64,000 bases of DNA from Nannocystales bacterium. GTDB taxonomy: Bacteria > Myxococcota_A > Polyangia > Nannocystales > Nannocystaceae. Where the stretch lies: positions 287,701 to 351,700 of the forward strand of contig JBOEGF010000002.1 in assembly GCA_050633305.1 (NCBI GenBank), given 5' to 3'. The notes beneath the pieces are model-generated. The model saw only the letters and a list, made by a program, of their open reading frames with translations, did not search any database and was not told the origin of the DNA. Made by a program: the position numbers and the translations under genes. Shown one piece after another: positions 25,857 to 40,765 of the stretch; positions within the stretch are counted from its first letter, which is position 1, and each line of letters begins with the position of its first letter.

Positions 25857-26084
25857 CTAGAACAGGGAATACGCAAACGGGGCGATGTAGGCGAGGCCGC
25901 CGGTCAGCCACAGGAGCACGCCTGCACAGAGCAGCACAAGCAGCAGCGGGGCGAGGACAAAGCGCGCCGGGTGCAGAAAGTGGGCGATCAAAGACCCGAT
26001 GGTCTTCAGCCGCGCGCCGAGGCGGTGAAGGGGTCCGGGTCGCGTCGGAGTGCGCGGCGGCGCGATGTCGTTTTCGCCGCTCAT
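25857..26084 (-). CDS. DUF5989/SxtK-like small membrane protein
   Basis: FVLAPLLLVLL...IAPFAYSLF C-terminal signature; ATGA overlap with the carbamoyltransferase stop. Confidence 0.85.
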   Translation of the reverse strand: MSGENDIAPPRTPTRPGPLHRLGARLKTIGSLIAHFLHPARFVLAPLLLVLLCAGVLLWLTGGLAYIAPFAYSLF

Positions 26085-27802
26085 TCGGGTCGGTCGATCC
26101 TCAGGTCTTCGATGAGCATCGAGTCGACCTTGTGCCGCATGAAGAAGGCGAGGGCGTCCTCGGCTCCGGCGACGATAGGTTCTCCCGGACCATTGAGGGA
26201 GGTGTTGAGCGCGATCGGGTCGTGCCCCGAGGCTTTGAGTGCGGTGAGCACTTCGTTGAGTGCGGGGGCACTCTGTGCGCAGACGGTCTGTACGCGAGCG
26301 GTGCCGTCCTCGTGTCGAACGGCGCCGAGCCGGCCAGCGCATTCGGGGCGAATTGGCAGCACGCTGGTCATGAAGGGCGTCATGTCATTGGCGTCTCCCT
26401 CGAAGAAATCGTTGGTGTCCGTCTTGAGCACTGCGGGCGCAAAAGGGCGGAAGGACTCGCGCTGTTTGATGAGGTGGTTGATACGATCCCGGGTCGCTCT
26501 CGCCCGCGGCGATGCGAAGACGCTGCGTTGCCCGAGCGCGCGAGGTCCCCATTCGAAGCGTCCTCGGACCACCGCGATGATCTTGTCCTGTGCGATGAGC
26601 GTGGCCGCCACGGTGGAGGGCTCCGAAACCCGCAGGACCGTCAGGCCAAGCTCTTTGGCGAGCCCGTGAGCGCGAGCTGTGTCGACTTCGACGCCCAAGG
26701 CCGCGGTTCGCATCGCCGCCGGCCGACCGTCGCCGAGTTCGATGCTGGCCAAGATGGCGGCGCCCAGCGCTCCGCCAGCATCGCCCGCGGCGGGCTGAAC
26801 GAACACCCGGTCGAATCCGGATTCACGCGCGAGCCGTGCGTTGGCCACACTGTTGAGGGCCACGCCCCCACCGAGGCAGAGCGCGCCGACCCCCGGCAGT
26901 TGTTGTCGCAGTCGGCGGGACAATCCGAGCAACGCGTCTTCGAGCACGCGCTGCAAGGTGGCGGCCACGTTCGCGTAATGCCGGTCCGCCGGATCGTCGA
27001 AATCCCACTTCTTGCCTGCGGCGCGTCGCGGCCCGAGCAAGGCCTCGAGCTGCGGGCCGAAGCCGAGGTTGGCGTCGCTCATATGTGCGAAGTAAGGCAG
27101 GTGGAGGTGATAGGCGCCGTCGCTCTGAAGGGTGATCAATCGCTCGAACGACTCGCGCAGGCCGTCCGTTCCCGCCCTGCCCCACGCGGCGAGGCCCATG
27201 ACCTTGTACTCCCCCTCGTTGACCGCAAAGCCGAGCCACGCAGTGATCGCCGCGTAGAGCAGCCCGAGCGAATGGGGAAAGTCGATGCTCTCGAGTCCGC
27301 GTAGTTCGGTGCCGTTCGCATGCCAGGTCGTCGTCGAGCTTTGTTCGCCGACGCCGTCGAGCACCAAGACGGCACACGCCTCGTACGGGGATGTGAAGGC
27401 GGCTGCCGCGGCGTGCGTGCGGTGGTGTTCGAGGCACTTCACTTTCTTGCGTTGGACGCCGAGCCCTTCGGCGAGGTGGTCGAGGACCCACAGGTTTCCG
27501 CCGAGCTGAGAGGCCATCGCACGGGGAAACTGCCGCCAGCTGCGTGGCAAGTTGCGCAGCATGGAGACCATGACGCGCTCGAGTTTGTGGAAGGGACGTT
27601 CGTAGAAGGCCACCGCGTCGAGTTGTTCGGCGCGAAGACCCGCGTGGGCCAAGCAGGCCTGCGCGGCCTCGAGCGGCAGGGTGGGGTCGTTCTTGATCCG
27701 GCTGAGGCGTTCTTGCTGGATCGCCACCCGCACCTGTCCGTCCACAACCAACGCGGCGGCCGCGTCGTGGTAGTTGGCCGAGACGCCCAAGACTGCCGCC
27801 AT
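26081..27802 (-). CDS. O-carbamoyltransferase (NodU/CmcH/TobZ/SxtI family)
   Basis: LGVSANYHDAAAAL..QQERLSRIK; EHHRTHAA; DGVGE; HSLGLLY; EYKVMGLA; GGVALNSVAN; EWGPRALG.RS; RESFRPFAP; HEDGTARVQTV; NTSLN..GEPIV. Confidence 0.96.
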   Translation of the reverse strand: MAAVLGVSANYHDAAAALVVDGQVRVAIQQERLSRIKNDPTLPLEAAQACLAHAGLRAEQLDAVAFYERPFHKLERVMVSMLRNLPRSWRQFPRAMASQLGGNLWVLDHLAEGLGVQRKKVKCLEHHRTHAAAAAFTSPYEACAVLVLDGVGEQSSTTTWHANGTELRGLESIDFPHSLGLLYAAITAWLGFAVNEGEYKVMGLAAWGRAGTDGLRESFERLITLQSDGAYHLHLPYFAHMSDANLGFGPQLEALLGPRRAAGKKWDFDDPADRHYANVAATLQRVLEDALLGLSRRLRQQLPGVGALCLGGGVALNSVANARLARESGFDRVFVQPAAGDAGGALGAAILASIELGDGRPAAMRTAALGVEVDTARAHGLAKELGLTVLRVSEPSTVAATLIAQDKIIAVVRGRFEWGPRALGQRSVFASPRARATRDRINHLIKQRESFRPFAPAVLKTDTNDFFEGDANDMTPFMTSVLPIRPECAGRLGAVRHEDGTARVQTVCAQSAPALNEVLTALKASGHDPIALNTSLNGPGEPIVAGAEDALAFFMRHKVDSMLIEDLRIDRPE

Positions 27803-27806
27803 CGCG

Positions 27807-28514
27807 CTACTCCGCGTCCTCGCCCGCGGGCAGCGGCTGCCATCCCTCTCGGACGGGTCGCACGATCCGGACGAGGAGAGCGAGGGGCGCCGCAAGCACG
27901 TAGAGCACGAGCATCGTTGCGGCGTAGGCACTCTCGGCCAAGAACCGTCCGCTGCGGAGCCATGCGCGCCCGAGCTCCCACCGTCGCACTCGCCCGATGG
28001 CGCGCCGCATTGTCCTGGGGTCCCCGGCGAGTTCCAGGAGGAGTGCTTGGGTGTAGCTGGCGTGGCGTCGCTCGTCGACCAAGATGGTGCGTAGCAACGT
28101 GGCGTCGCGCTGCCGATTGTTCGCCTCGAAGTAGCTCACATACGCGTCGAACTGTCGAATCGCCCGCGCCTCGCCCCAATGGACGAAGGCGAGGAAGTCG
28201 AGCTCGCCGAGGCGGTCGAACAGGCCTTCGTAGTCGGCATGCACCCGGCGAACCTCCGCGGTTGGGCGCCCGGCTTGACTCATCAGCTGCACGCTGCGTC
28301 CGGTGAACATCCTGCAATGCCTCGCCTCATCATCCGCGTGACGAAGGTAGGCCGCGGCTCGCGAGCGCGACGATGTCCGGCGGGCGGCCAGCCGCAGGTC
28401 GAGCATGCTCGCCTGCTCTGCGTGCGCAAATCCGTGTAGCATTCGTGCGCTGCGAGCCGGCGTGCGCCAGACCCAACCGCTGGTGACCCGCGCAATTCCG
28501 CCGACGAGGTTCAA
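27807..28514 (-). CDS. Ferritin-like (diiron) domain protein with SxtJ-like C-terminal membrane segment
   Basis: E...DEARH...E...DERRH ligand pattern; C-terminal RAWLRSGRFL...LVLYVLAAPLALLVR; TTG start overlapping the upstream TGA. Confidence 0.8.
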   Translation of the reverse strand: MNLVGGIARVTSGWVWRTPARSARMLHGFAHAEQASMLDLRLAARRTSSRSRAAAYLRHADDEARHCRMFTGRSVQLMSQAGRPTAEVRRVHADYEGLFDRLGELDFLAFVHWGEARAIRQFDAYVSYFEANNRQRDATLLRTILVDERRHASYTQALLLELAGDPRTMRRAIGRVRRWELGRAWLRSGRFLAESAYAATMLVLYVLAAPLALLVRIVRPVREGWQPLPAGEDAE

Positions 28515-30991
28515 AGGCAGATGCCTCCGCCGTTGTACGGCGTACAACGGCCCTCGGAACACGGGTGAAGGGCGTCGCAGGGCGCGTAGCAGTCGTTCGT
28601 CGCGGTGGCGTGGATCGTCCCTTCGGGACACTTGGGTGGGGACAGGGGGTCGCCCTGCGAACAGGCGAGGAGCTGTTTGCAGTCCACCGGGTGGCCCTTG
28701 GCTTGCTGTTTCTTCACGCCGACCTTCCGTTCAACGTCGGCGCGTCCGTTCGGGCCGTAGGCATCGTAGCAACCCTGGCTTGCTTCACCCCATGTCTCGC
28801 GACAACTGGGCTTGCAATCATGAAGACCAACGTCCGTGTAGCGGCCGCCCTCAACACAGGTCTCGTCGTTCGTGACCTCGATGTGGCACTCACACAATGC
28901 CACGCGCAGCTTCGCATCATCACCCACAACTGCTTCGGCGAGCGGTCGGCCTCCCGCCGCACTCTCCACGAAGCTTCCGCTGAATCCGTAGCTGCCGTCT
29001 TCCTTCTTCGGCCAGTCGATCTTGAGTTCGCGACTTCGTGTTTCCCAGTCGAATCGCGCGACCAACGGGGTGCCTTGGGTCAACGGGGTGGTGAGCGAGA
29101 CGCCATCGCGAGTCACCAAGGTCATCACCTCGGGACCGCCACCGCTTGTCACGCTGACACCGGTTGCAGCTTCGTCACCCACGCGTCGCCGGGCGCAACG
29201 CACGCGGAGCCAATCGCCACGGATCTGAGTGCTGCAGCCGGCGTTGCTCGAGCCTGTCACCCTGATCTCATCAGAGGCCAACCAGTACTCCGCGCTTGGC
29301 GGATAGCTCCTCCCCTCGGGCAGGCCGGGTGCGGGAAGGACGAGGCTTGGCGGCGACGCGAGCGTGTTGGCCAGAGCCGAGGCCAACGCCGCGTGCCCTT
29401 TCGCGGTCATGTGGATGTCGCCATTGAGAAAGGCGCCCGGCGACGCATCCCGTAACGCCGCGGTGGCGTCGAGAGCCCGCGCACCCTCGGCCCGGGCGCT
29501 GGCGGTGAGGTCGGCGAGGAGGGCGAGCGATGGTTCCATGTCGGGCCCGTCGTCGACATCGTACTTCTTCCATTCTTCGGCGGAGACCTGGACATCAACG
29601 GGCAAGGCGATGACGACCAGCTCAACGCCGTGCTGCTCGCACAGTGCCGCAAGTTCCTTCAGGTGGGGGGCGAACACCGAAGCTTCTCGCCCCGTCTCGA
29701 TGGCGCCATCTGTGCCTGCGACCCGCCGCAGCGTTTCTCGCTGGTTGGCCATCGCCTGCGCACCTTCGAAGAGATCGCCAGCGGCGATTTGCTCCCGGAG
29801 CTTTTCGCGCTTGACGAGCAACTCCTCGCGAGAGGCTTGGAGAACCTTGGCCTCGGCGCCGGCGGCTGTCCTCCGTGCCGCGACGCGCTTCAGGTGCTTT
29901 CGTCGCGCCCGCGCCGCCCGGTTGATGTGGGCCGCGGTCAGCACAATCGAGCGGGAGGACTCGGAGTAGCGATCGTTGACGATGTCCCCTGGCTTTCCCT
30001 CTGCGACGCGGCGCTCGAAGTCATCCGGATCGTCGTACTCCTCGACCAGCAAGTCGTCGATCGCTGACTGCTTGGTCTGGATGTCGCTCTCGACGGACTC
30101 CAGCCGAGCGAGTTGGGCTTGGGCGCCAGCACGCGCCCGCTGCTTGCGGGCTTGGGAGGTTTGGGTTGAACGGGTCCCTTCGCCGATCAAGTCGTCCCAT
30201 GTCCCCTCGGACGGCACCCCAACGTCGATCGCCTCGGGCCCGGCATCGGCTTCGTCGCGCTGGTACCACCAGCGACGCGCGGCATAGAACAGGTGCGACC
30301 GGGAGTAGAGCCACTGGCGCCCCGGAAAGTCGACCACGCTCTGGGCCGAGGGAGCCGTCTCTTTCCGTACCGCCCAGCCGTCCCAGACCGCATGGCGATC
30401 GGTGTTGGGACGCTCGAGTTCAAAGGGGTCGTTGAGGAAGTTGAGCGTGTAGACGAGGGTCTGCGGTTTGCGTAACTCGATAAGCTCCCGCGCCAGCGCG
30501 AGGTACTCTGGTGGGCCGAAGGTCGGAACTCCCGCATTGAGCACGGGTCGGCCGGTCGCTTCTGCGAGCTTGGCGGAGAACGTCTCGTCGTCGTTGACGC
30601 CCAGCCCGAAAACCTGCGAGTCGCCGATGACGATGACTTCCTCGTTGTTCTCGGGATTGGCCTGCGGCCACGCCGGTCCCCGGTACCCGCTCGAGTTGGT
30701 CGTAATCTCGCTGGTCGGGTTGTCGTGGAGGTGGAAACGCATCTGGGCACCCGCCTCCAAGCGAACGCCGAGCTCGGCATCGGCGACGTAGAAGTTGACG
30801 TGGGGAAAGGCCCCGTCGGCGCGCTTGGTGAAAGCCCATTCCGCGACGGCAAGACCGACCCCGGTACCGAGCAGCAGCTGTGCCGCGACAAACAAGCGCC
30901 GCCACGTCTTGGAGCGGGTTTTCTTGGATCCGGCTTTGCCCGCAGAGGCAGGGTCCGAAACGCGTTCGGGCGAGCGTGTGGGGTCTTCCAT
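28511..30991 (-). CDS. Membrane-anchored SGNH/GDSL hydrolase with coiled-coil insert and Cys-rich C-terminal domain
   Basis: TM helix; TNSSGYRG; IGDSQVFG; VLNAGVPTFG; NFLND; DIHMTAKGH; C-terminal Cys cluster. Confidence 0.88.
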   Translation of the reverse strand: MEDPTRSPERVSDPASAGKAGSKKTRSKTWRRLFVAAQLLLGTGVGLAVAEWAFTKRADGAFPHVNFYVADAELGVRLEAGAQMRFHLHDNPTSEITTNSSGYRGPAWPQANPENNEEVIVIGDSQVFGLGVNDDETFSAKLAEATGRPVLNAGVPTFGPPEYLALARELIELRKPQTLVYTLNFLNDPFELERPNTDRHAVWDGWAVRKETAPSAQSVVDFPGRQWLYSRSHLFYAARRWWYQRDEADAGPEAIDVGVPSEGTWDDLIGEGTRSTQTSQARKQRARAGAQAQLARLESVESDIQTKQSAIDDLLVEEYDDPDDFERRVAEGKPGDIVNDRYSESSRSIVLTAAHINRAARARRKHLKRVAARRTAAGAEAKVLQASREELLVKREKLREQIAAGDLFEGAQAMANQRETLRRVAGTDGAIETGREASVFAPHLKELAALCEQHGVELVVIALPVDVQVSAEEWKKYDVDDGPDMEPSLALLADLTASARAEGARALDATAALRDASPGAFLNGDIHMTAKGHAALASALANTLASPPSLVLPAPGLPEGRSYPPSAEYWLASDEIRVTGSSNAGCSTQIRGDWLRVRCARRRVGDEAATGVSVTSGGGPEVMTLVTRDGVSLTTPLTQGTPLVARFDWETRSRELKIDWPKKEDGSYGFSGSFVESAAGGRPLAEAVVGDDAKLRVALCECHIEVTNDETCVEGGRYTDVGLHDCKPSCRETWGEASQGCYDAYGPNGRADVERKVGVKKQQAKGHPVDCKQLLACSQGDPLSPPKCPEGTIHATATNDCYAPCDALHPCSEGRCTPYNGGGICL

Positions 30992-34918: not shown

Positions 34919-35034
34919 CCACGGAGGGTACCAGCCACCCGAATCGGCTGCCCAACCCGGCTTCTTCCCCTAGGGAAGTCGATAACCCTCCTGGCCTGCG
35001 TGTTTCACATTGACACCTCCGCGTGCCCGCGCTG

Positions 35035-35151
35035 ATGAAGACTCTGTTCGTCACCACCCCCGAGGACATCGCCGCCGAGCTTCACGGTGCTCGGCCACCA
35101 CCTCGAGCCTGTGCGGCCGCGCAACTCCAGCAGTTCTCGGCAGTGCCCTGA
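35035..35151 (+). repeat. About 110-bp dispersed repeat, copy 1 (38-codon ORF MKTLFVTTPEDIAAELHGAR...)
   Basis: Matches 38882-38984. Confidence 0.8.
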
Positions 35152-35439
35152 GCACCCTCAGTCTGGCTCACGATGCCCCTCGCTTCGCCTCGTCTCCGCG
35201 TGCCTGGATTTTCGGCCCCGTGCCTTCACGCTGCCCCTCGCGCCCGCTTTGCCCCTCGATGCCCTCGCCCTGCCAGGGCTCAGCCCCTATCCACAACCGG
35301 CCGCTGGCCCCCTACGCAACGACCGCGCGCGAGCGTCCTCGCCGTACTCCTCCGCACCGGCTTTGTTCCACTTCGTTTCGCGTAAACGCGCTGGGTACGA
35401 CCATGTTCAAGAGGCCCGGGAGGCCCGGGCTCGTGACTC

Positions 35440-36669: not shown

Positions 36670-37256
36670 AGTGCGAAAGACGCTACGCCGACTCGCCTCG
36701 ATTGGGCAGGGTTTTGGGACCCCTCTGGTTGACCCCGCGTCCATCTGCGGGCAGAGGCGGTCCCCACGGCATCCCCGTCAGCCCTAGGGGCCTTCGGCCG
36801 GCGCCCCGGACGATAGTCCCTGACCTCTCTCGTTCGTCGACCAGCGCGCGGACTTCCGGGTGGGCGGAGGCGAGTGTCACCCAGGCCGCACGAACGGCGG
36901 AGGTTGGCGCGGTCGTGTGAAGCAGGCGTGCGGGCTCACGGTCCACGTGCAGGCGTGAAGGCGTGACCTCGGAATGCTCCACATCCACGACGTCCGAGAG
37001 AGGCGCGGGTGCCGTCCAAGGTCTCGAGTTCAATCGAGCTGAGTCATCGGGATCCGAGGCCGGCAACGGTGCGCGCCCGGAGACGCAGGAACCTTCCCCA
37101 AGCTCGGAGTCACCAGCAGCGGTGGACGAAAAAACACCGGGCCCGGACGAGATCTCCGAGTATGACGGCGTCCCGCCGTACTCCTCCACACCGGCTTTTT
37201 CCCAGTTCATTTCGCGCGAGCGTTCGCGTCGAGCCTCGGTCGAAGCCTCGTCTGGA

Positions 37257-37925
37257 CTACTGAGTCTCTCCCATCAGGCCGTCCTGCAGCCGAATGCCAA
37301 AGCGCATGGTGTGGCACAGACCGGGCGCCAGAGCGTAGAAGCGAAAGTTCTCAGGCGGGATCCCGAGCGCATGCAGGTCCCCGTACACAGTATCCGGATT
37401 CGACCCGTTGCCGGCCGAGTGGATCCCACCCATGACATTCTTAGAGTCCGCATACCAGCCGCCTCGGTGACTGGACCCGGCGAGCACAGCGTAGAGTTGG
37501 GCAGGAGGCGTGTTGCCCATCTGTTGTAGAAGGATCCTCCAGCTTCCCTCCCGCCTTCCCCATCCGGCGCCCGTGCCCCCGGGGTAGTACCCGCCGGTCA
37601 AGTGTGCCAGTCCGATCCGTGTGAACCGGTTGTTGTGTGGGTCATAGGCTCCGATGGCGATCGCGATGCACGAATCGAGTCCCGAGGTCCAAATCGTCCC
37701 GGCGGTCGCAAACTGGTGGTCACCGGTCTGCACATGAGTCTGCGGCCCGATCAGGGGAGCCCGCAGCCGCGGGCGCGTGCGTGGAGCTCTGGTCGTCGAG
37801 AATCCGCCCTGCAGCGTTGCCTGACTCGGCACCATCGCAGCCACCGTCGCGATGTAGACCTGTTGGTAGGTGAGCCCGTCGGCCGTGCGGTAGGCGTGTT
37901 GGGGGTGTGCCGGAACCCAAGGCAT
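37257..37925 (-). CDS. CheD/CNF1/YfiH-like cysteine deamidase fold protein
   Basis: IWTSGLDSCIAIAI..YD......IGLAH matches the CheD TxGLGSC...GLAH Cys-His dyad; later YAVLAGS. Confidence 0.7.
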   Translation of the reverse strand: MPWVPAHPQHAYRTADGLTYQQVYIATVAAMVPSQATLQGGFSTTRAPRTRPRLRAPLIGPQTHVQTGDHQFATAGTIWTSGLDSCIAIAIGAYDPHNNRFTRIGLAHLTGGYYPGGTGAGWGRREGSWRILLQQMGNTPPAQLYAVLAGSSHRGGWYADSKNVMGGIHSAGNGSNPDTVYGDLHALGIPPENFRFYALAPGLCHTMRFGIRLQDGLMGETQ

Positions 37926-37947: not shown

Positions 37948-38295
37948 TAGATCGGAGACCATGTCGGTTCGGTCTCACCTCGAACAGCCAGGCGGACGGT
38001 TGTTTGAACCTCGACGTCCTGCAGCGGTTCGAACGCTTCGAGCACCGCCATGGTGCCATCGTCGAAACGGGTCTCCTACTGGCGCTCGACCAGCACGTCG
38101 TCGCCGATCCACACCGTGGCCGTGATCGAGTCCTCTCCCGCGACGTGCGGAACGTGATCGGCTCGGCGGGGAGGTCACCGTGGTGCGGTTCCATCACCGC
38201 GACCGTGCGTGCCTCGGGCCTCACGAACGTCGGTGTCGGGCACATCGGGAGGACGGCCCGCGACGAGCATGGCGAGCGTGTGCAGCAGGCCCATC
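37948..38295 (-). pseudogene. Frameshifted remnant of a secreted-protein gene
   Basis: Protein-like segments (MGLLHTLAMLVAG; FVRPEARTVAVMEP; GEDSITATVWIGDDVL; ETRFDDGTMAVLEAF) split over frames, with an internal stop. Confidence 0.35.
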
Positions 38296-38636
38296 CGCAC
38301 GGATGCTCACACCGAGCACGTCTCTGAGTTCGGGCGGCTGCGGCAAGTCGAACGAACTGCGCCCCGCCCTCGCCGCGCATGCGTTTCCCGTCGGCCGGCA
38401 ACGAGAGAGACCTGTTTCTCGGGCAGGACGTCTGCCGACAGGGCCAGGAAAGCCCGCGGCGTTGAGCATGGTGCCCAGTGCTGCAGCACCCACGTAGTGT
38501 TCCTGACACTCAGGGCAGCGCGTTCTCGATTCGTGCTTCCCACGCTGTGCGCCAACCCCGGCGGCTGAAACAAAAAAAGTGACCCATGCGACCGAAACTC
38601 TCGTCACAGGCAGCGCGCACCGAGTCTACCTACCCG

Positions 38637-38846
38637 ATGAAAAGAAAGAACAAAACGCCTTCTTGCAAACGCAACCTCAACCGCGAACTGCCCGACGCGT
38701 TGCTTGAGTCTGTCACGGGCGGCGCGAACCCAGGCGCGGCGCCTGTGGCCAGTTTGCCGTCAATTGGCACGATAGGGTGCTTCCCGCCCGTGGGTACCGT
38801 CGGCTGCTTCCCACCCGTTGGCTGCTTCCCACCCATCGGCACCTAG
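38637..38846 (+). CDS. Putative RiPP/bacteriocin precursor with double-glycine leader
   Basis: Leader ending RELPDALLESVTGG; core ANPGAAPVASLPSIGTIGCFPPVGTVGCFPPVGCFPPIGT; GCFPP repeats differ at synonymous sites. Confidence 0.72.
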   Translation: MKRKNKTPSCKRNLNRELPDALLESVTGGANPGAAPVASLPSIGTIGCFPPVGTVGCFPPVGCFPPIGT

Positions 38847-38881
38847 GCCGAGCACTGCTGTGCACCCGCTGTACCGGGCCC

Positions 38882-38984
38882 ATGAAGGTGACTCGTCACC
38901 ACGCCCGAGGACATCGCGGCCGAGCTCCACGGTGCTCGGCCGCCGCGAGCCTGTACGACCGCACAACTCCAGTTGTTCTCGGCG
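38882..38984 (+). repeat. About 110-bp dispersed repeat, copy 2
   Basis: Matches 35035-35151; 5' frameshift after atgaag. Confidence 0.8.
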
Positions 38985-39209
38985 CTTATTCCTTTGGAGC
39001 AGAGCACCACAAGCACACCCTGCGAACACCACGACGTCTACCCTCAGCTATGGGTCGCGGGTCGCGCGCATGCCACCCGGAGACCTCCCAACAACCCAGG
39101 GACATTCGGGAGGAAGGTATCGCGGAGGTTCACCGGGACGAAGCGGGGCGCGTTGTGGCCCTTTGTCTGGGGGGAGCCCTCCAACTTGGACTGTGCTATT
39201 AAGCCTTTC

Positions 39210-39959: not shown

Positions 39960-40125
39960 CAAGGAAGGTCTACGCGACTCGGTACCTCTTCGAGAGCTTC
40001 TTCCACCGCCTCAAACGCTTCCGAGCCATCGCGAGGCGTTTACGAAAAGACCAGCCGCAGCTTTCTGGCCTTGGTCCAGTTCGCCTGTTCGATTCTTTGG
40101 CTGGAATCGAATTGAGGACACCCCC
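39960..40125 (+). mobile_element. IS5-family transposase C-terminal remnant with right end
   Basis: KVYATRYLFESFFHRLKRFRAIA.R/YEKTSRSFLALVQFACSILWLESN* with one frameshift, then ggacaccccc end. Confidence 0.85.
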
Positions 40126-40147
40126 GAGTTGTTCTACCCTTCAGGTA

Positions 40148-40717
40148 ATGGAGCCCACTGAGTCCGATCGACTGCGGACCGCGTTCCCTACGGCGCTGCG
40201 CAATGACGTGGAACGTGCCCTCGCTGTTCTGCCTCCAACGGCGCATCCCCCGACTCAGGACGTGGGGCCCGTCCTTGTCGCAGGGGAACGCATTCGTATC
40301 CCGCACAGGATCTACTCGTCAGAGCCCAACGAGGTTCAACTCGATGGGCTCTCCCCGCTCCACCGGAAACTCGTCGCCTGCCTATACACGAGACATCACG
40401 ACGGGTTTGTGCGTGAGAAGCACTTGCGCGAACTACTGAGAGATGCCGAACGGTGGGTCGTCCCGTTTGTAATCCAGCTTGTTGGCGAGTACGTGCTTGA
40501 AGTCATACTGCTGTTGGAGTCCCGAGCCCCGCTGTTCCAGCAGCCTCACTTCGTCACCTTCGCACGCGCGAACCCCGACTTCATCGACCTGACGAAGCAG
40601 CGCGCGATCAGCTATTGGGACTGCTACCATCGCCACCGCTATCCCAAGTTGAAGGACTACCCCGGCGTCAAGCTCATCGAGGCATTGGAACGAGCGTCGG
40701 CCACCCAAGCTGACTAG
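40148..40717 (+). CDS. Hypothetical protein (immunity-like)
   Basis: IPHRIY...CLYTRHHDGFVREKHL...WVVPFVIQLVGEYVLEV...QRAISYWDCY; clean ORF from ATG 40148. Confidence 0.82.
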   Translation: MEPTESDRLRTAFPTALRNDVERALAVLPPTAHPPTQDVGPVLVAGERIRIPHRIYSSEPNEVQLDGLSPLHRKLVACLYTRHHDGFVREKHLRELLRDAERWVVPFVIQLVGEYVLEVILLLESRAPLFQQPHFVTFARANPDFIDLTKQRAISYWDCYHRHRYPKLKDYPGVKLIEALERASATQAD

Positions 40718-40721
40718 CAAG

Positions 40722-40765
40722 CTAGCTAGGGGGTGTCCTCAATTCGATTCCAGCCAAAGCACCGA
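40722..40765 (-). mobile_element. Second right end of the same IS5-family element, inverted
   Basis: 40729-40759 is the perfect 31-bp reverse complement of 40095-40125; on the minus strand it reads ...ggacaccccctagctag with a CTAG target-like site. Confidence 0.85.

What the first reader, a model, noticed from the sequence alone, without database searches (positions are those of the whole stretch)
38637..38846. Orphan double-glycine RiPP-like precursor with three GCFPP core repeats
Seen: a 69-aa ORF with a basic N-terminus, the leader motif ELPDALLESVTGG, and a core containing GTIGCFPPV-GTVGCFPPV-GCFPPIGT. The GCFPP repeats differ at third positions (ggg/ggc, ccg/cca), which argues for selection on the peptide rather than simple slippage. 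Established: ELxxxxLxxVxGG is the C39-peptidase double-glycine leader motif. No maturase or peptidase-transporter is visible in the window. Inference: a multi-core precursor processed in trans (Cys heterocycles or thioethers, Thr/Cys crosslinks, or short cyclic peptides), possibly a new myxobacterial RiPP family.
Basis: partly seen in the sequence, partly recalled or inferred. Interest (0 to 1): 0.72.

Follow-up and report, generated by a model that had tools for sequence, protein, structure and literature searches.

The report
Stranded double-glycine repeat peptide gene
This is very probably a real small gene for an export-tagged peptide carrying a rare repeated Cys-Phe-Pro-Pro motif; it now sits alone among transposon debris, most likely cut off from the enzyme gene that once followed it, so it points to an undescribed peptide family whose chemistry is still open.

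Summary
The 69-codon ORF, its double-glycine leader and three CFPP repeats are confirmed. Repeat copies 1 and 2 differ at 8 bases, 7 at third positions (p about 0.003). One homolog came out of 1.84 billion representatives: a 62-aa metagenome peptide with a different GG leader and three CFPPIGT units. So the conserved unit is C-F-P-P-[IV]-G-T, not GCFPP. Its contig could not be read. The leader, linker and bases before the start codon resemble precursors that precede a JmjC oxygenase in 3 of 72 family genomes, one of them this genome. Here an IS91-family fragment starts 12-13 bases after the stop, and the neighbours are decayed fragments. The genome has five C39 transporters, each with its own precursor; no YcaO was found. 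Best reading: a displaced precursor, exportable in trans, that has lost its partner enzyme. Modification in trans, multi-core cutting and expression are not shown. The scan had not noted this motif before.

The parts
38622..38636 (+). Motif before the start codon (G-x-x-TCTAC-N5-CG-ATG), shared with three JmjC-linked precursor genes; supports 38637 rather than 38586 as the start
   Evidence: 8 of 9 invariant bases match; a match with at most one mismatch occurs at 150 of 237,861 ATGs of the genome. The motif window was chosen after seeing the sequences.
38637..38723 (+). Leader peptide, 29 residues, ending Gly-Gly; Leu at -12, Leu at -7, Val at -4
   Evidence: fits the hydrophobic -4/-7/-12 rule for C39 peptidases (PMC10885120, passages read)
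38724..38777 (+). Ala/Pro-rich linker, residues 30-47
   Evidence: Leader end plus linker is 14 of 27 identical to the JmjC-linked precursor of G467; the linker alone beats 998 of 1000 shuffles against that precursor but not against the other two
38778..38798 (+). Repeat 1, C-F-P-P-V-G-T
38805..38822 (+). Repeat 2, C-F-P-P-V-G (no Thr)
38823..38846 (+). Repeat 3, C-F-P-P-I-G-T, then stop; the same C-terminus as homolog P0003
38859..38986 (+). Decayed fragment of the 3' end of an IS91-family transposase gene, where a downstream partner gene would begin
   Evidence: 76-80% identical to full-length elements at C50:12212-13946 and C40:23990-25723, with frameshifting indels; the C50 element has Zn_Tnp_IS91 and Y2_Tnp domains
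38019..38407 (-). Truncated, frameshifted piece of a gene whose intact paralog is C18:914047-914664
   Evidence: 70% identical, indels of 4, 2, 1 and 1 bases, stops in frame
37164..37216 (+). Right end of an IS91-family element
34981..35391 (+). Further IS91-family 3' fragment with its right end
   Evidence: 71% identity over 434 bases
39965..40128 (+). End fragment of another insertion sequence (IS5-like by recalled motif), with an inverted 41-base copy at 40725-40765

Best explanation
A real precursor-peptide gene, stranded by mobile-element rearrangement. Its 5' part (bases before the start, leader, linker) belongs to a lineage that in related genomes heads a two-gene cassette: precursor followed at once by a tailoring oxygenase, with no transporter alongside. 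Its core is a different, rare module, C-F-P-P-[IV]-G-T repeated three times. An IS91-family (rolling-circle) event replaced whatever followed the stop codon. How it would work today: if translated, the leader helix (Leu-12, Leu-7, Val-4) docks on the C39 domain of one of the five peptidase-containing ABC transporters encoded elsewhere; the peptide is cut after Gly29, and a 40-residue, uncharged, hydrophobic core (3,767 Da, 3 Cys, 9 Pro) is exported without its dedicated modification, at most with one disulfide. In the ancestral cassette the repeat was most likely the site of modification, my guess being a Cys(i)-Thr(i+6) link across the Pro-Pro turn or oxidation of Phe or Pro. Shown: the ORF, selection on the repeats, one homolog, leader kinship, IS debris, transporters in the genome. 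Inferred: loss of a partner gene, cleavage, export, any chemistry.
For: Third-position bias in the repeats. Homolog P0003, E 1.2e-4 among 1.84 billion representatives, with a GG leader, three units and the same C-terminus. A profile built only from two JmjC-linked precursors of other genomes ranks the cognate precursor first (E 1e-5) and this ORF second (E 0.0015) of 205,263 frames. Among 15 other precursors the three JmjC-linked ones score highest against residues 1-46 (64, 60, 56; next 53). The pre-start motif is in these three and in the target, and in none of the 10 other precursor genes whose upstream bases were printed. All 3 close JmjC orthologs found in 72 family genomes have such a precursor directly upstream, and no C39 transporter lies on the 17-kb and 8.8-kb stretches read from G020 and G467. 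The IS91 fragment begins 12-13 bases after the stop; both flanking pieces carry frameshifts while the ORF is intact. IS91-family elements carry flanking DNA (PMC9330008, passages). A 759-base contig of public run X1 spans ORF and IS junction, with one synonymous difference in the ORF (depth 3.3, may be an error or the same campaign).
Against: No intact cassette with this core was seen anywhere, so the lost partner is inferred; no JmjC remnant lies downstream. With three training sequences the MNIO-cluster precursor scores as well as the target (E 2.7e-4 against 3.2e-4), and the DNA profile ranks the target third at E 0.26, absent from the top 8 when only foreign sequences are used. The target lacks the His/Trp/Asp motif common to the JmjC-linked cores. 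Its leader fits the four transporter-adjacent leaders poorly (rank 138 of 205,263), so export in trans is not assured. IS91 remnants are common here (47 matches on 18 contigs), so adjacency can be chance. Weak coding scores. P0003 is a single sequence and repeats inflate its E-value; about one protein in the library would end in this heptamer by chance, though hardly also with a GG leader and three copies.
Confidence: 0.5

Rival explanations
1. An active RiPP precursor modified in trans by an enzyme of this genome: most plausibly the class I LanB/LanC pair (methyl-lanthionine rings from the 3 Thr, 2 Ser and 3 Cys), otherwise the JmjC oxygenase about 87 kb away on the same contig (Phe or Pro hydroxylation) or the two-MNIO pair.
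For: LanB and LanC are present; the lanthipeptide precursor shares some leader and linker sequence (17 of 46 identical, E 0.001; score 53). The JmjC leader kinship. JmjC enzymes act on RiPP cores: CzlI turns Phe into Tyr (PMC11575548, passages) and BipG is an ornithine hydroxylase (PMC12707348, passages). The ORF stays intact amid decay.
Against: Each of these enzymes has its own adjacent precursor. The last 14 leader residues score only 9 against the lanthipeptide leader. Thr-to-Cys spacing upstream of each Cys differs between target (3) and P0003 (4). No His in the core for a MINA/NO66-like enzyme. No YcaO. No Asp, Glu or Lys in the core for the two ATP-grasp ligases.
Confidence: 0.22
2. A stand-alone, unmodified secreted peptide that never had a maturase: a Pro-rich, three-Cys peptide exported by a shared transporter and acting as a signal, a soft-metal binder or a narrow toxin against other bacteria.
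For: A second free-standing GG peptide lies at C2:278090-278257. C39 domains can be tolerant of core sequence (PMC10885120). Both known members have three Cys. An earlier, unchecked scan note describes stand-alone GG peptides in Acidobacteria (e1-1068833); the nearest Atlas clusters are unnamed 65-66 aa Acidobacteriota proteins, at lead level only (scores 0.87-0.89).
Against: The core has no charged residue, unlike most class II bacteriocins (comparison recalled). An odd number of Cys. The closest leaders all precede an enzyme gene.
Confidence: 0.2
3. Not a working gene: a chance or dead frame in a region of transposon debris, with repeats made by slippage.
For: Low coding scores; no promoter-like site; absent from 6 of 6 congeneric genomes; this exact sequence is not in the 15-billion collection; a profile from the genome's seven other leaders ranks it only 16th, E 84.
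Against: Third-position bias (p 0.0026), the homolog, the leader and pre-start kinship and the intact frame rule out a chance frame; a recently silenced gene stays possible.
Confidence: 0.08

Closest known systems
Double-glycine leader peptides of C39 peptidase-containing ABC transporters (ComC/ComA, LahA/LahT; PMC10885120, passages read)
   Same: Short N-terminal leader ending GG with hydrophobic residues at -4, -7 and -12.
   Different: No transporter or enzyme beside the gene; a core that matches no Pfam or NCBIfam model; a Pro at -11.
Plesiocin (group 2 graspetide; bioRxiv 10.1101/2021.03.09.434688, passages read)
   Same: Precursor with tandem core repeats; a plesiocin-like cluster with LFIEDL leader and TTxxxxEE repeats is in this genome.
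   Different: The target has neither LFIEDL nor any acidic core residue, so ATP-grasp side-chain esters cannot form.
JmjC-type RiPP hydroxylases CzlI (curacozole, PMC11575548) and BipG (biphenomycin, PMC12707348), passages read
   Same: Precedent for JmjC enzymes modifying a precursor peptide, CzlI on Phe; the target's closest leaders precede a JmjC gene.
   Different: Those are tailoring steps in larger clusters. Here the related cassettes have two genes, and the target has no JmjC gene beside it.
Class I lanthipeptides
   Same: Cys and Thr/Ser in the core; T-x-G-C recalls nisin ring B (recalled); LanB and LanC occur in the genome.
   Different: The enzymes lie on another contig with their own precursor; T-to-C spacing is not conserved in the homolog.
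IS91/ISCR gene capture (PMC9330008, passages read)
   Same: Passenger DNA lying between IS91-family remnants, upstream of a transposase 3' fragment.
   Different: Only decayed fragments remain; no right end follows the fragment at 38859-38986, and capture itself is not shown.

Membership tests
Double-glycine (C39/PCAT) precursor | Leader ends in GG/GA/GS | tested here: met
   Gly28-Gly29
Double-glycine (C39/PCAT) precursor | Hydrophobic residues at -4, -7, -12 | tested here: met
   Val, Leu, Leu (rule)
Double-glycine (C39/PCAT) precursor | A C39 transporter in the genome | tested here: met
   5 matches, none in the window, each beside another precursor
Double-glycine (C39/PCAT) precursor | Cleavage after GG and export | not testable with these tools
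   Needs an assay; leader ranks only 138th with the transporter-adjacent leader profile
JmjC-linked GG precursor cassette (seen here, unnamed) | Leader and pre-start motif of the lineage | tested here: met
   the DNA profile alone is not significant (E 0.26)
JmjC-linked GG precursor cassette (seen here, unnamed) | JmjC gene directly downstream | tested here: not met
   IS91 fragment instead; no remnant by tblastn
JmjC-linked GG precursor cassette (seen here, unnamed) | Core motif VHxWDG...HI | tested here: not met
YcaO azole/azoline RiPPs (LAPs, cyanobactins) | YcaO cyclodehydratase | tested here: not met
   0 matches, genome 92% complete, control rang in 5 of 14
Class I lanthipeptide | LanB and LanC available | tested here: inconclusive
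   One pair on C10 with its own precursor
Class I lanthipeptide | Dehydration and thioether rings | not testable with these tools
   Needs co-expression and mass spectrometry
Class II lanthipeptide | LanM dehydratase domain (PF13575) | tested here: inconclusive
   0 matches, but the control rang in 0 of 14; the only LanC-like match is the 353-aa stand-alone protein
Graspetide | Acidic acceptor residues in the core | tested here: not met
   No Asp or Glu in the 40-residue core
Radical-SAM thioether RiPPs (sacti-/ranthipeptides) | SPASM radical-SAM enzyme with peptide-recognition domain linked to the precursor | tested here: inconclusive
   7 SPASM matches and 1 weak PqqD match, none in the window; no GG precursor among genes called beside them
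Multi-core RiPP (cut into several products) | Conserved protease sites between cores | tested here: not met
   Spacers differ within and between the two members; repeat 2 runs straight into repeat 3

The most novel reading that the evidence does not exclude
The target and P0003 are the first two members of an undescribed RiPP class whose repeated C-F-P-P-[IV]-G-T unit is cross-linked or oxidised by a dedicated enzyme, and whose core module moves between leader lineages: here it is grafted on the leader of a two-gene GG-precursor/JmjC cassette, itself apparently undescribed, and is still processed in trans by that JmjC enzyme, giving a natural chimeric precursor.
Probability: 0.22. Interest if true: 0.68.

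Novelty: new variant of a known kind. Interest (0 to 1): 0.42.

Why it matters
The leader type and export route are well known; the repeat core is not. Two otherwise unlike precursors sharing the same heptamer and C-terminus suggest a rare peptide family that neighbourhood-based genome mining cannot see, because one member has no enzyme beside it. If the leader and core do come from different lineages, it is a natural case of leader-core swapping and of IS91-type elements breaking up RiPP clusters. The value is limited by having two members, no known context for either, and no expression data. The side finding, a conserved GG precursor plus MINA/NO66-like JmjC gene pair, is more directly testable.

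Tried and rejected
Homolog searches without a credible hit: word search of 5.8 billion proteins with the target (3 candidates, none scored), with P0003 (only itself) and among longer proteins (2,673 candidates, none scored); 60 related genomes (48 of 60 had matches at E up to 1; the two best foreign ones were read and are repeats without a leader); 401 phylum genomes by profile and by pattern (only G000; the profile scored 15 candidates per genome); 72 family genomes by pattern (only G000) and by leader profile (strong hits only the 4 training loci); genome, metagenome and viral collections (none confirmed); tandem-motif scans gave 9 metagenome and 5 genome stretches, all 14 read, none a GG precursor (the pattern needs TGC at the first Cys, and it did not return the P0003 contig); plasmids, only E 0.4 or worse. 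P0002, the other hit, is an abalone repeat protein and was dropped as chance. JmjC loci were read for CFPP cores: small GG-type ORFs beside 7 of 13 loci, none with the motif; none beside 5 class-level and 2 plasmid loci. Structure prediction of the two-sequence alignment (P0003 modelled) gave pLDDT 49 and was not used. Expression: no RNA holder listed. The piece at 39965-40128 looked at first like the end of a prolyl oligopeptidase gene but is an insertion-sequence end. The 86-codon start at 38586 was set aside because the pre-start motif sits at 38637. Literature: the motif strings gave only unrelated abbreviations (listing only); CFPP had 0 occurrences in the 20 papers listed of 86; searches for JmjC with RiPP terms showed no GG-precursor/JmjC cassette in the listings. 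The library lacks most subscription papers, and no supplements were opened, where precursor tables could hold this motif.

Full report
Observation. Window 38637-38846 (+) translates to 69 residues with a basic start, a leader ending ELPDALLESVTGG and three GCFPP motifs. The window is C2:287701-351700 of an 11.0-Mb, 65.9% GC, 92% complete assembly. No call named the taxon; I infer a Plesiocystis/Nannocystis-like myxobacterium from size, GC and a plesiocin-like cluster. The tandem motif is unique among 205,263 six-frame ORFs. Copies 1 and 2 differ at 8 bases, 7 at third positions (p 0.0026); copies 2 and 3 differ in one codon, so the last copy is young. Coding statistics are poor (hexamer score -0.12 per codon, codon adaptation 0.56), but the conserved JmjC-linked precursor of the same genome scores 0.59. 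No promoter-like or terminator-like site was found. The leader has Val-4, Leu-7, Leu-12, the pattern that C39 domains read (PMC10885120, passages). The 40-residue core has no charged residue, 9 Pro, 3 Cys, 3 Thr, 2 Ser, 3 Phe, and a mass of 3,767 Da.

Relatives of the core. Pfam and NCBIfam give nothing. An exhaustive search of 1.84 billion representatives gave two hits. One is an abalone repeat protein, dropped as chance. The other, P0003, is a 62-residue singleton from a 6,132-base JGI/IMG contig, with a different GG leader and three CFPPIGT units at a 10-residue period, ending like the target. The shared unit is therefore C-F-P-P-[IV]-G-T; the Gly before Cys is not conserved, the spacers differ, and the target's middle copy lacks Thr. 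By background frequencies about one protein in that library would end in this heptamer; a GG leader and three copies on top make chance unlikely, but this is one sequence. Every further search was blank: 0 of 71 family genomes, 0 of 400 phylum genomes, and 14 of 14 pattern hits in the genome and metagenome collections were unrelated frames (TGC required at the first Cys). The P0003 contig was not recovered, so its gene context is unknown.

Relatives of the leader. The genome holds eight other GG-type precursors: five beside the five C39 transporters (two ATP-grasp clusters, one class I lanthipeptide cluster, two clusters with unnamed enzymes), one before two MNIO genes, one before a JmjC gene (C2:238908-239105), and one alone (C2:278090-278257). 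The JmjC protein is MINA/NO66-like (E 4e-21) with an invariant H-x-D...H triad. Close orthologs (56-58% identical) occur in 2 of 71 other family genomes, and each follows a GG precursor with a Pro-rich linker and a VHxWDG...HI end; 400 class genomes added no further close ortholog. These three precursors are the best matches to target residues 1-46 among 15 tested. A profile from the two foreign ones ranks the cognate first and the target second in this genome (E 0.0015), the MNIO precursor third (E 0.073); with all three, the MNIO precursor ties. The three genes share nine invariant bases before the ATG; the target matches eight, which 150 of 237,861 ATGs do, and none of ten other precursor genes shows the motif. 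A DNA profile ranks the target third but at E 0.26. A profile of the genome's seven other leaders ranks it 16th (E 84), and one of the four transporter-adjacent leaders 138th. I read this as moderate evidence that the 5' part descends from the JmjC-cassette lineage, while the core does not.

Surroundings. The gene sits in a mosaic. An IS91-family transposase fragment starts at 38859, 12-13 bases after the stop; further IS91 pieces lie at 37164-37216 and 34981-35391. The full element is at C50:12212-13946 (Zn_Tnp_IS91 and Y2_Tnp) and C40:23990-25723; 47 matches lie on 18 contigs. Upstream is a truncated, frameshifted copy of a C18 gene; downstream are another gene fragment and an insertion-sequence end. 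In the six congeneric genomes only these pieces match among the 150 places listed, not the ORF (58 more were not listed; one search also found no homolog there). IS91-family elements move flanking DNA (PMC9330008, passages). In the JmjC cassette of this genome the enzyme gene begins 50 bases after the precursor, where the target has the IS fragment; no JmjC remnant is detectable. A low-depth contig of one public microbial-mat run spans 38420-39171 with the ORF intact and one synonymous difference in it; it may come from the same campaign.

Enzymes available in trans. No YcaO. One LanB/LanC pair. Seven SPASM matches, without GG precursors among the genes called beside them. Seven MNIO matches; by my reading of the neighbours four of the five outside the C38 cluster lie near signal-peptide-type small proteins and none near a GG precursor. 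Three JmjC_2 matches. The core cannot take ATP-grasp side-chain esters and lacks the His of the JmjC-linked cores; lanthionine chemistry is possible on composition. JmjC enzymes do modify RiPP cores (CzlI, Phe to Tyr, PMC11575548; BipG, PMC12707348; passages), and bacterial JmjC proteins were predicted to modify peptides in secondary metabolism (PMC2938197, passages).

Mechanism and odds. Most likely (0.5): a displaced precursor that lost its partner; if made, it is cut after Gly29 and exported by a shared transporter as an unmodified 40-mer. Rivals: modified in trans by LanB/LanC, JmjC or MNIO (0.22); a peptide that never needed an enzyme (0.2); a dead or chance frame (0.08). Cleavage, export, expression and all chemistry are inferred. 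Multi-core cutting has no support beyond the repeats.

Novelty. The leader and export logic are known; I found no description of the core motif or of the two-gene JmjC cassette, in listings of an incomplete library, with no supplements opened. Papers of which I saw passages: PMC10885120, PMC9330008, PMC2938197, PMC11575548, PMC12707348, bioRxiv 10.1101/2021.03.09.434688 and 10.64898/2026.10.04.756588 (one passage, not relevant). Verdict: new variant of a known kind, interest 0.42; the novel reading has probability 0.22 and would deserve 0.68.

Noticed in passing
G000 C2:237544-239105 (L042/L062); L063 (G467); L064 (G020): Two-gene cassette: GG precursor with conserved VHxWDG...HI end followed by a MINA/NO66-like JmjC oxygenase, with no transporter nearby; 3 of 72 family genomes. 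Candidate histidine-hydroxylated RiPP; no description found in three literature searches, and no scan note matched its sequence.
   Followed up: partly
L068, L073, L075, L080: More distant JmjC genes also have small GG-type ORFs beside them, with other cores (Pro-rich, or Thr/Asp-rich after an EARLxAIAGG leader); L074 has a small Asp/Ser/Cys-rich peptide upstream.
   Followed up: partly
G000 C2:278090-278257 (L097): Second free-standing GG-leader ORF, 55 residues, with a 16-residue core; no enzyme beside it.
   Followed up: partly
window 37257-37925 (-): 222-residue orphan ORF between IS91 remnants; a Cys...His pattern recalls CheD/CNF1-type deamidases (recalled); only a weak XopAK model hit (E 0.08, far below cut-off), no PDB sequence match.
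   Followed up: partly
G000 C50 and G002 C18: IS91-family 3' fragments recur many times on single contigs with unrelated genes between them (10 matches on the 42-kb contig C50; a run of near-identical copies on G002 C18), suggesting arrays built by one-ended rolling-circle transposition.
   Followed up: partly
G000 C10:588253-604961 (L043): Plesiocin-like graspetide cluster next to a class I lanthipeptide cluster, each with its own C39 transporter.
   Followed up: partly
G000 C14:444683-449680 (L046): ATP-grasp ligase, short Cys/Asp-rich GG precursor and C39 transporter.
   Followed up: partly
window 40088-40765: A 189-residue orphan ORF flanked by inverted 41-base insertion-sequence ends, like a miniature composite element.
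   Followed up: no
window 26081-30991 (-): Carbamoyltransferase operon about 11 kb from the finding; no link seen.
   Followed up: no
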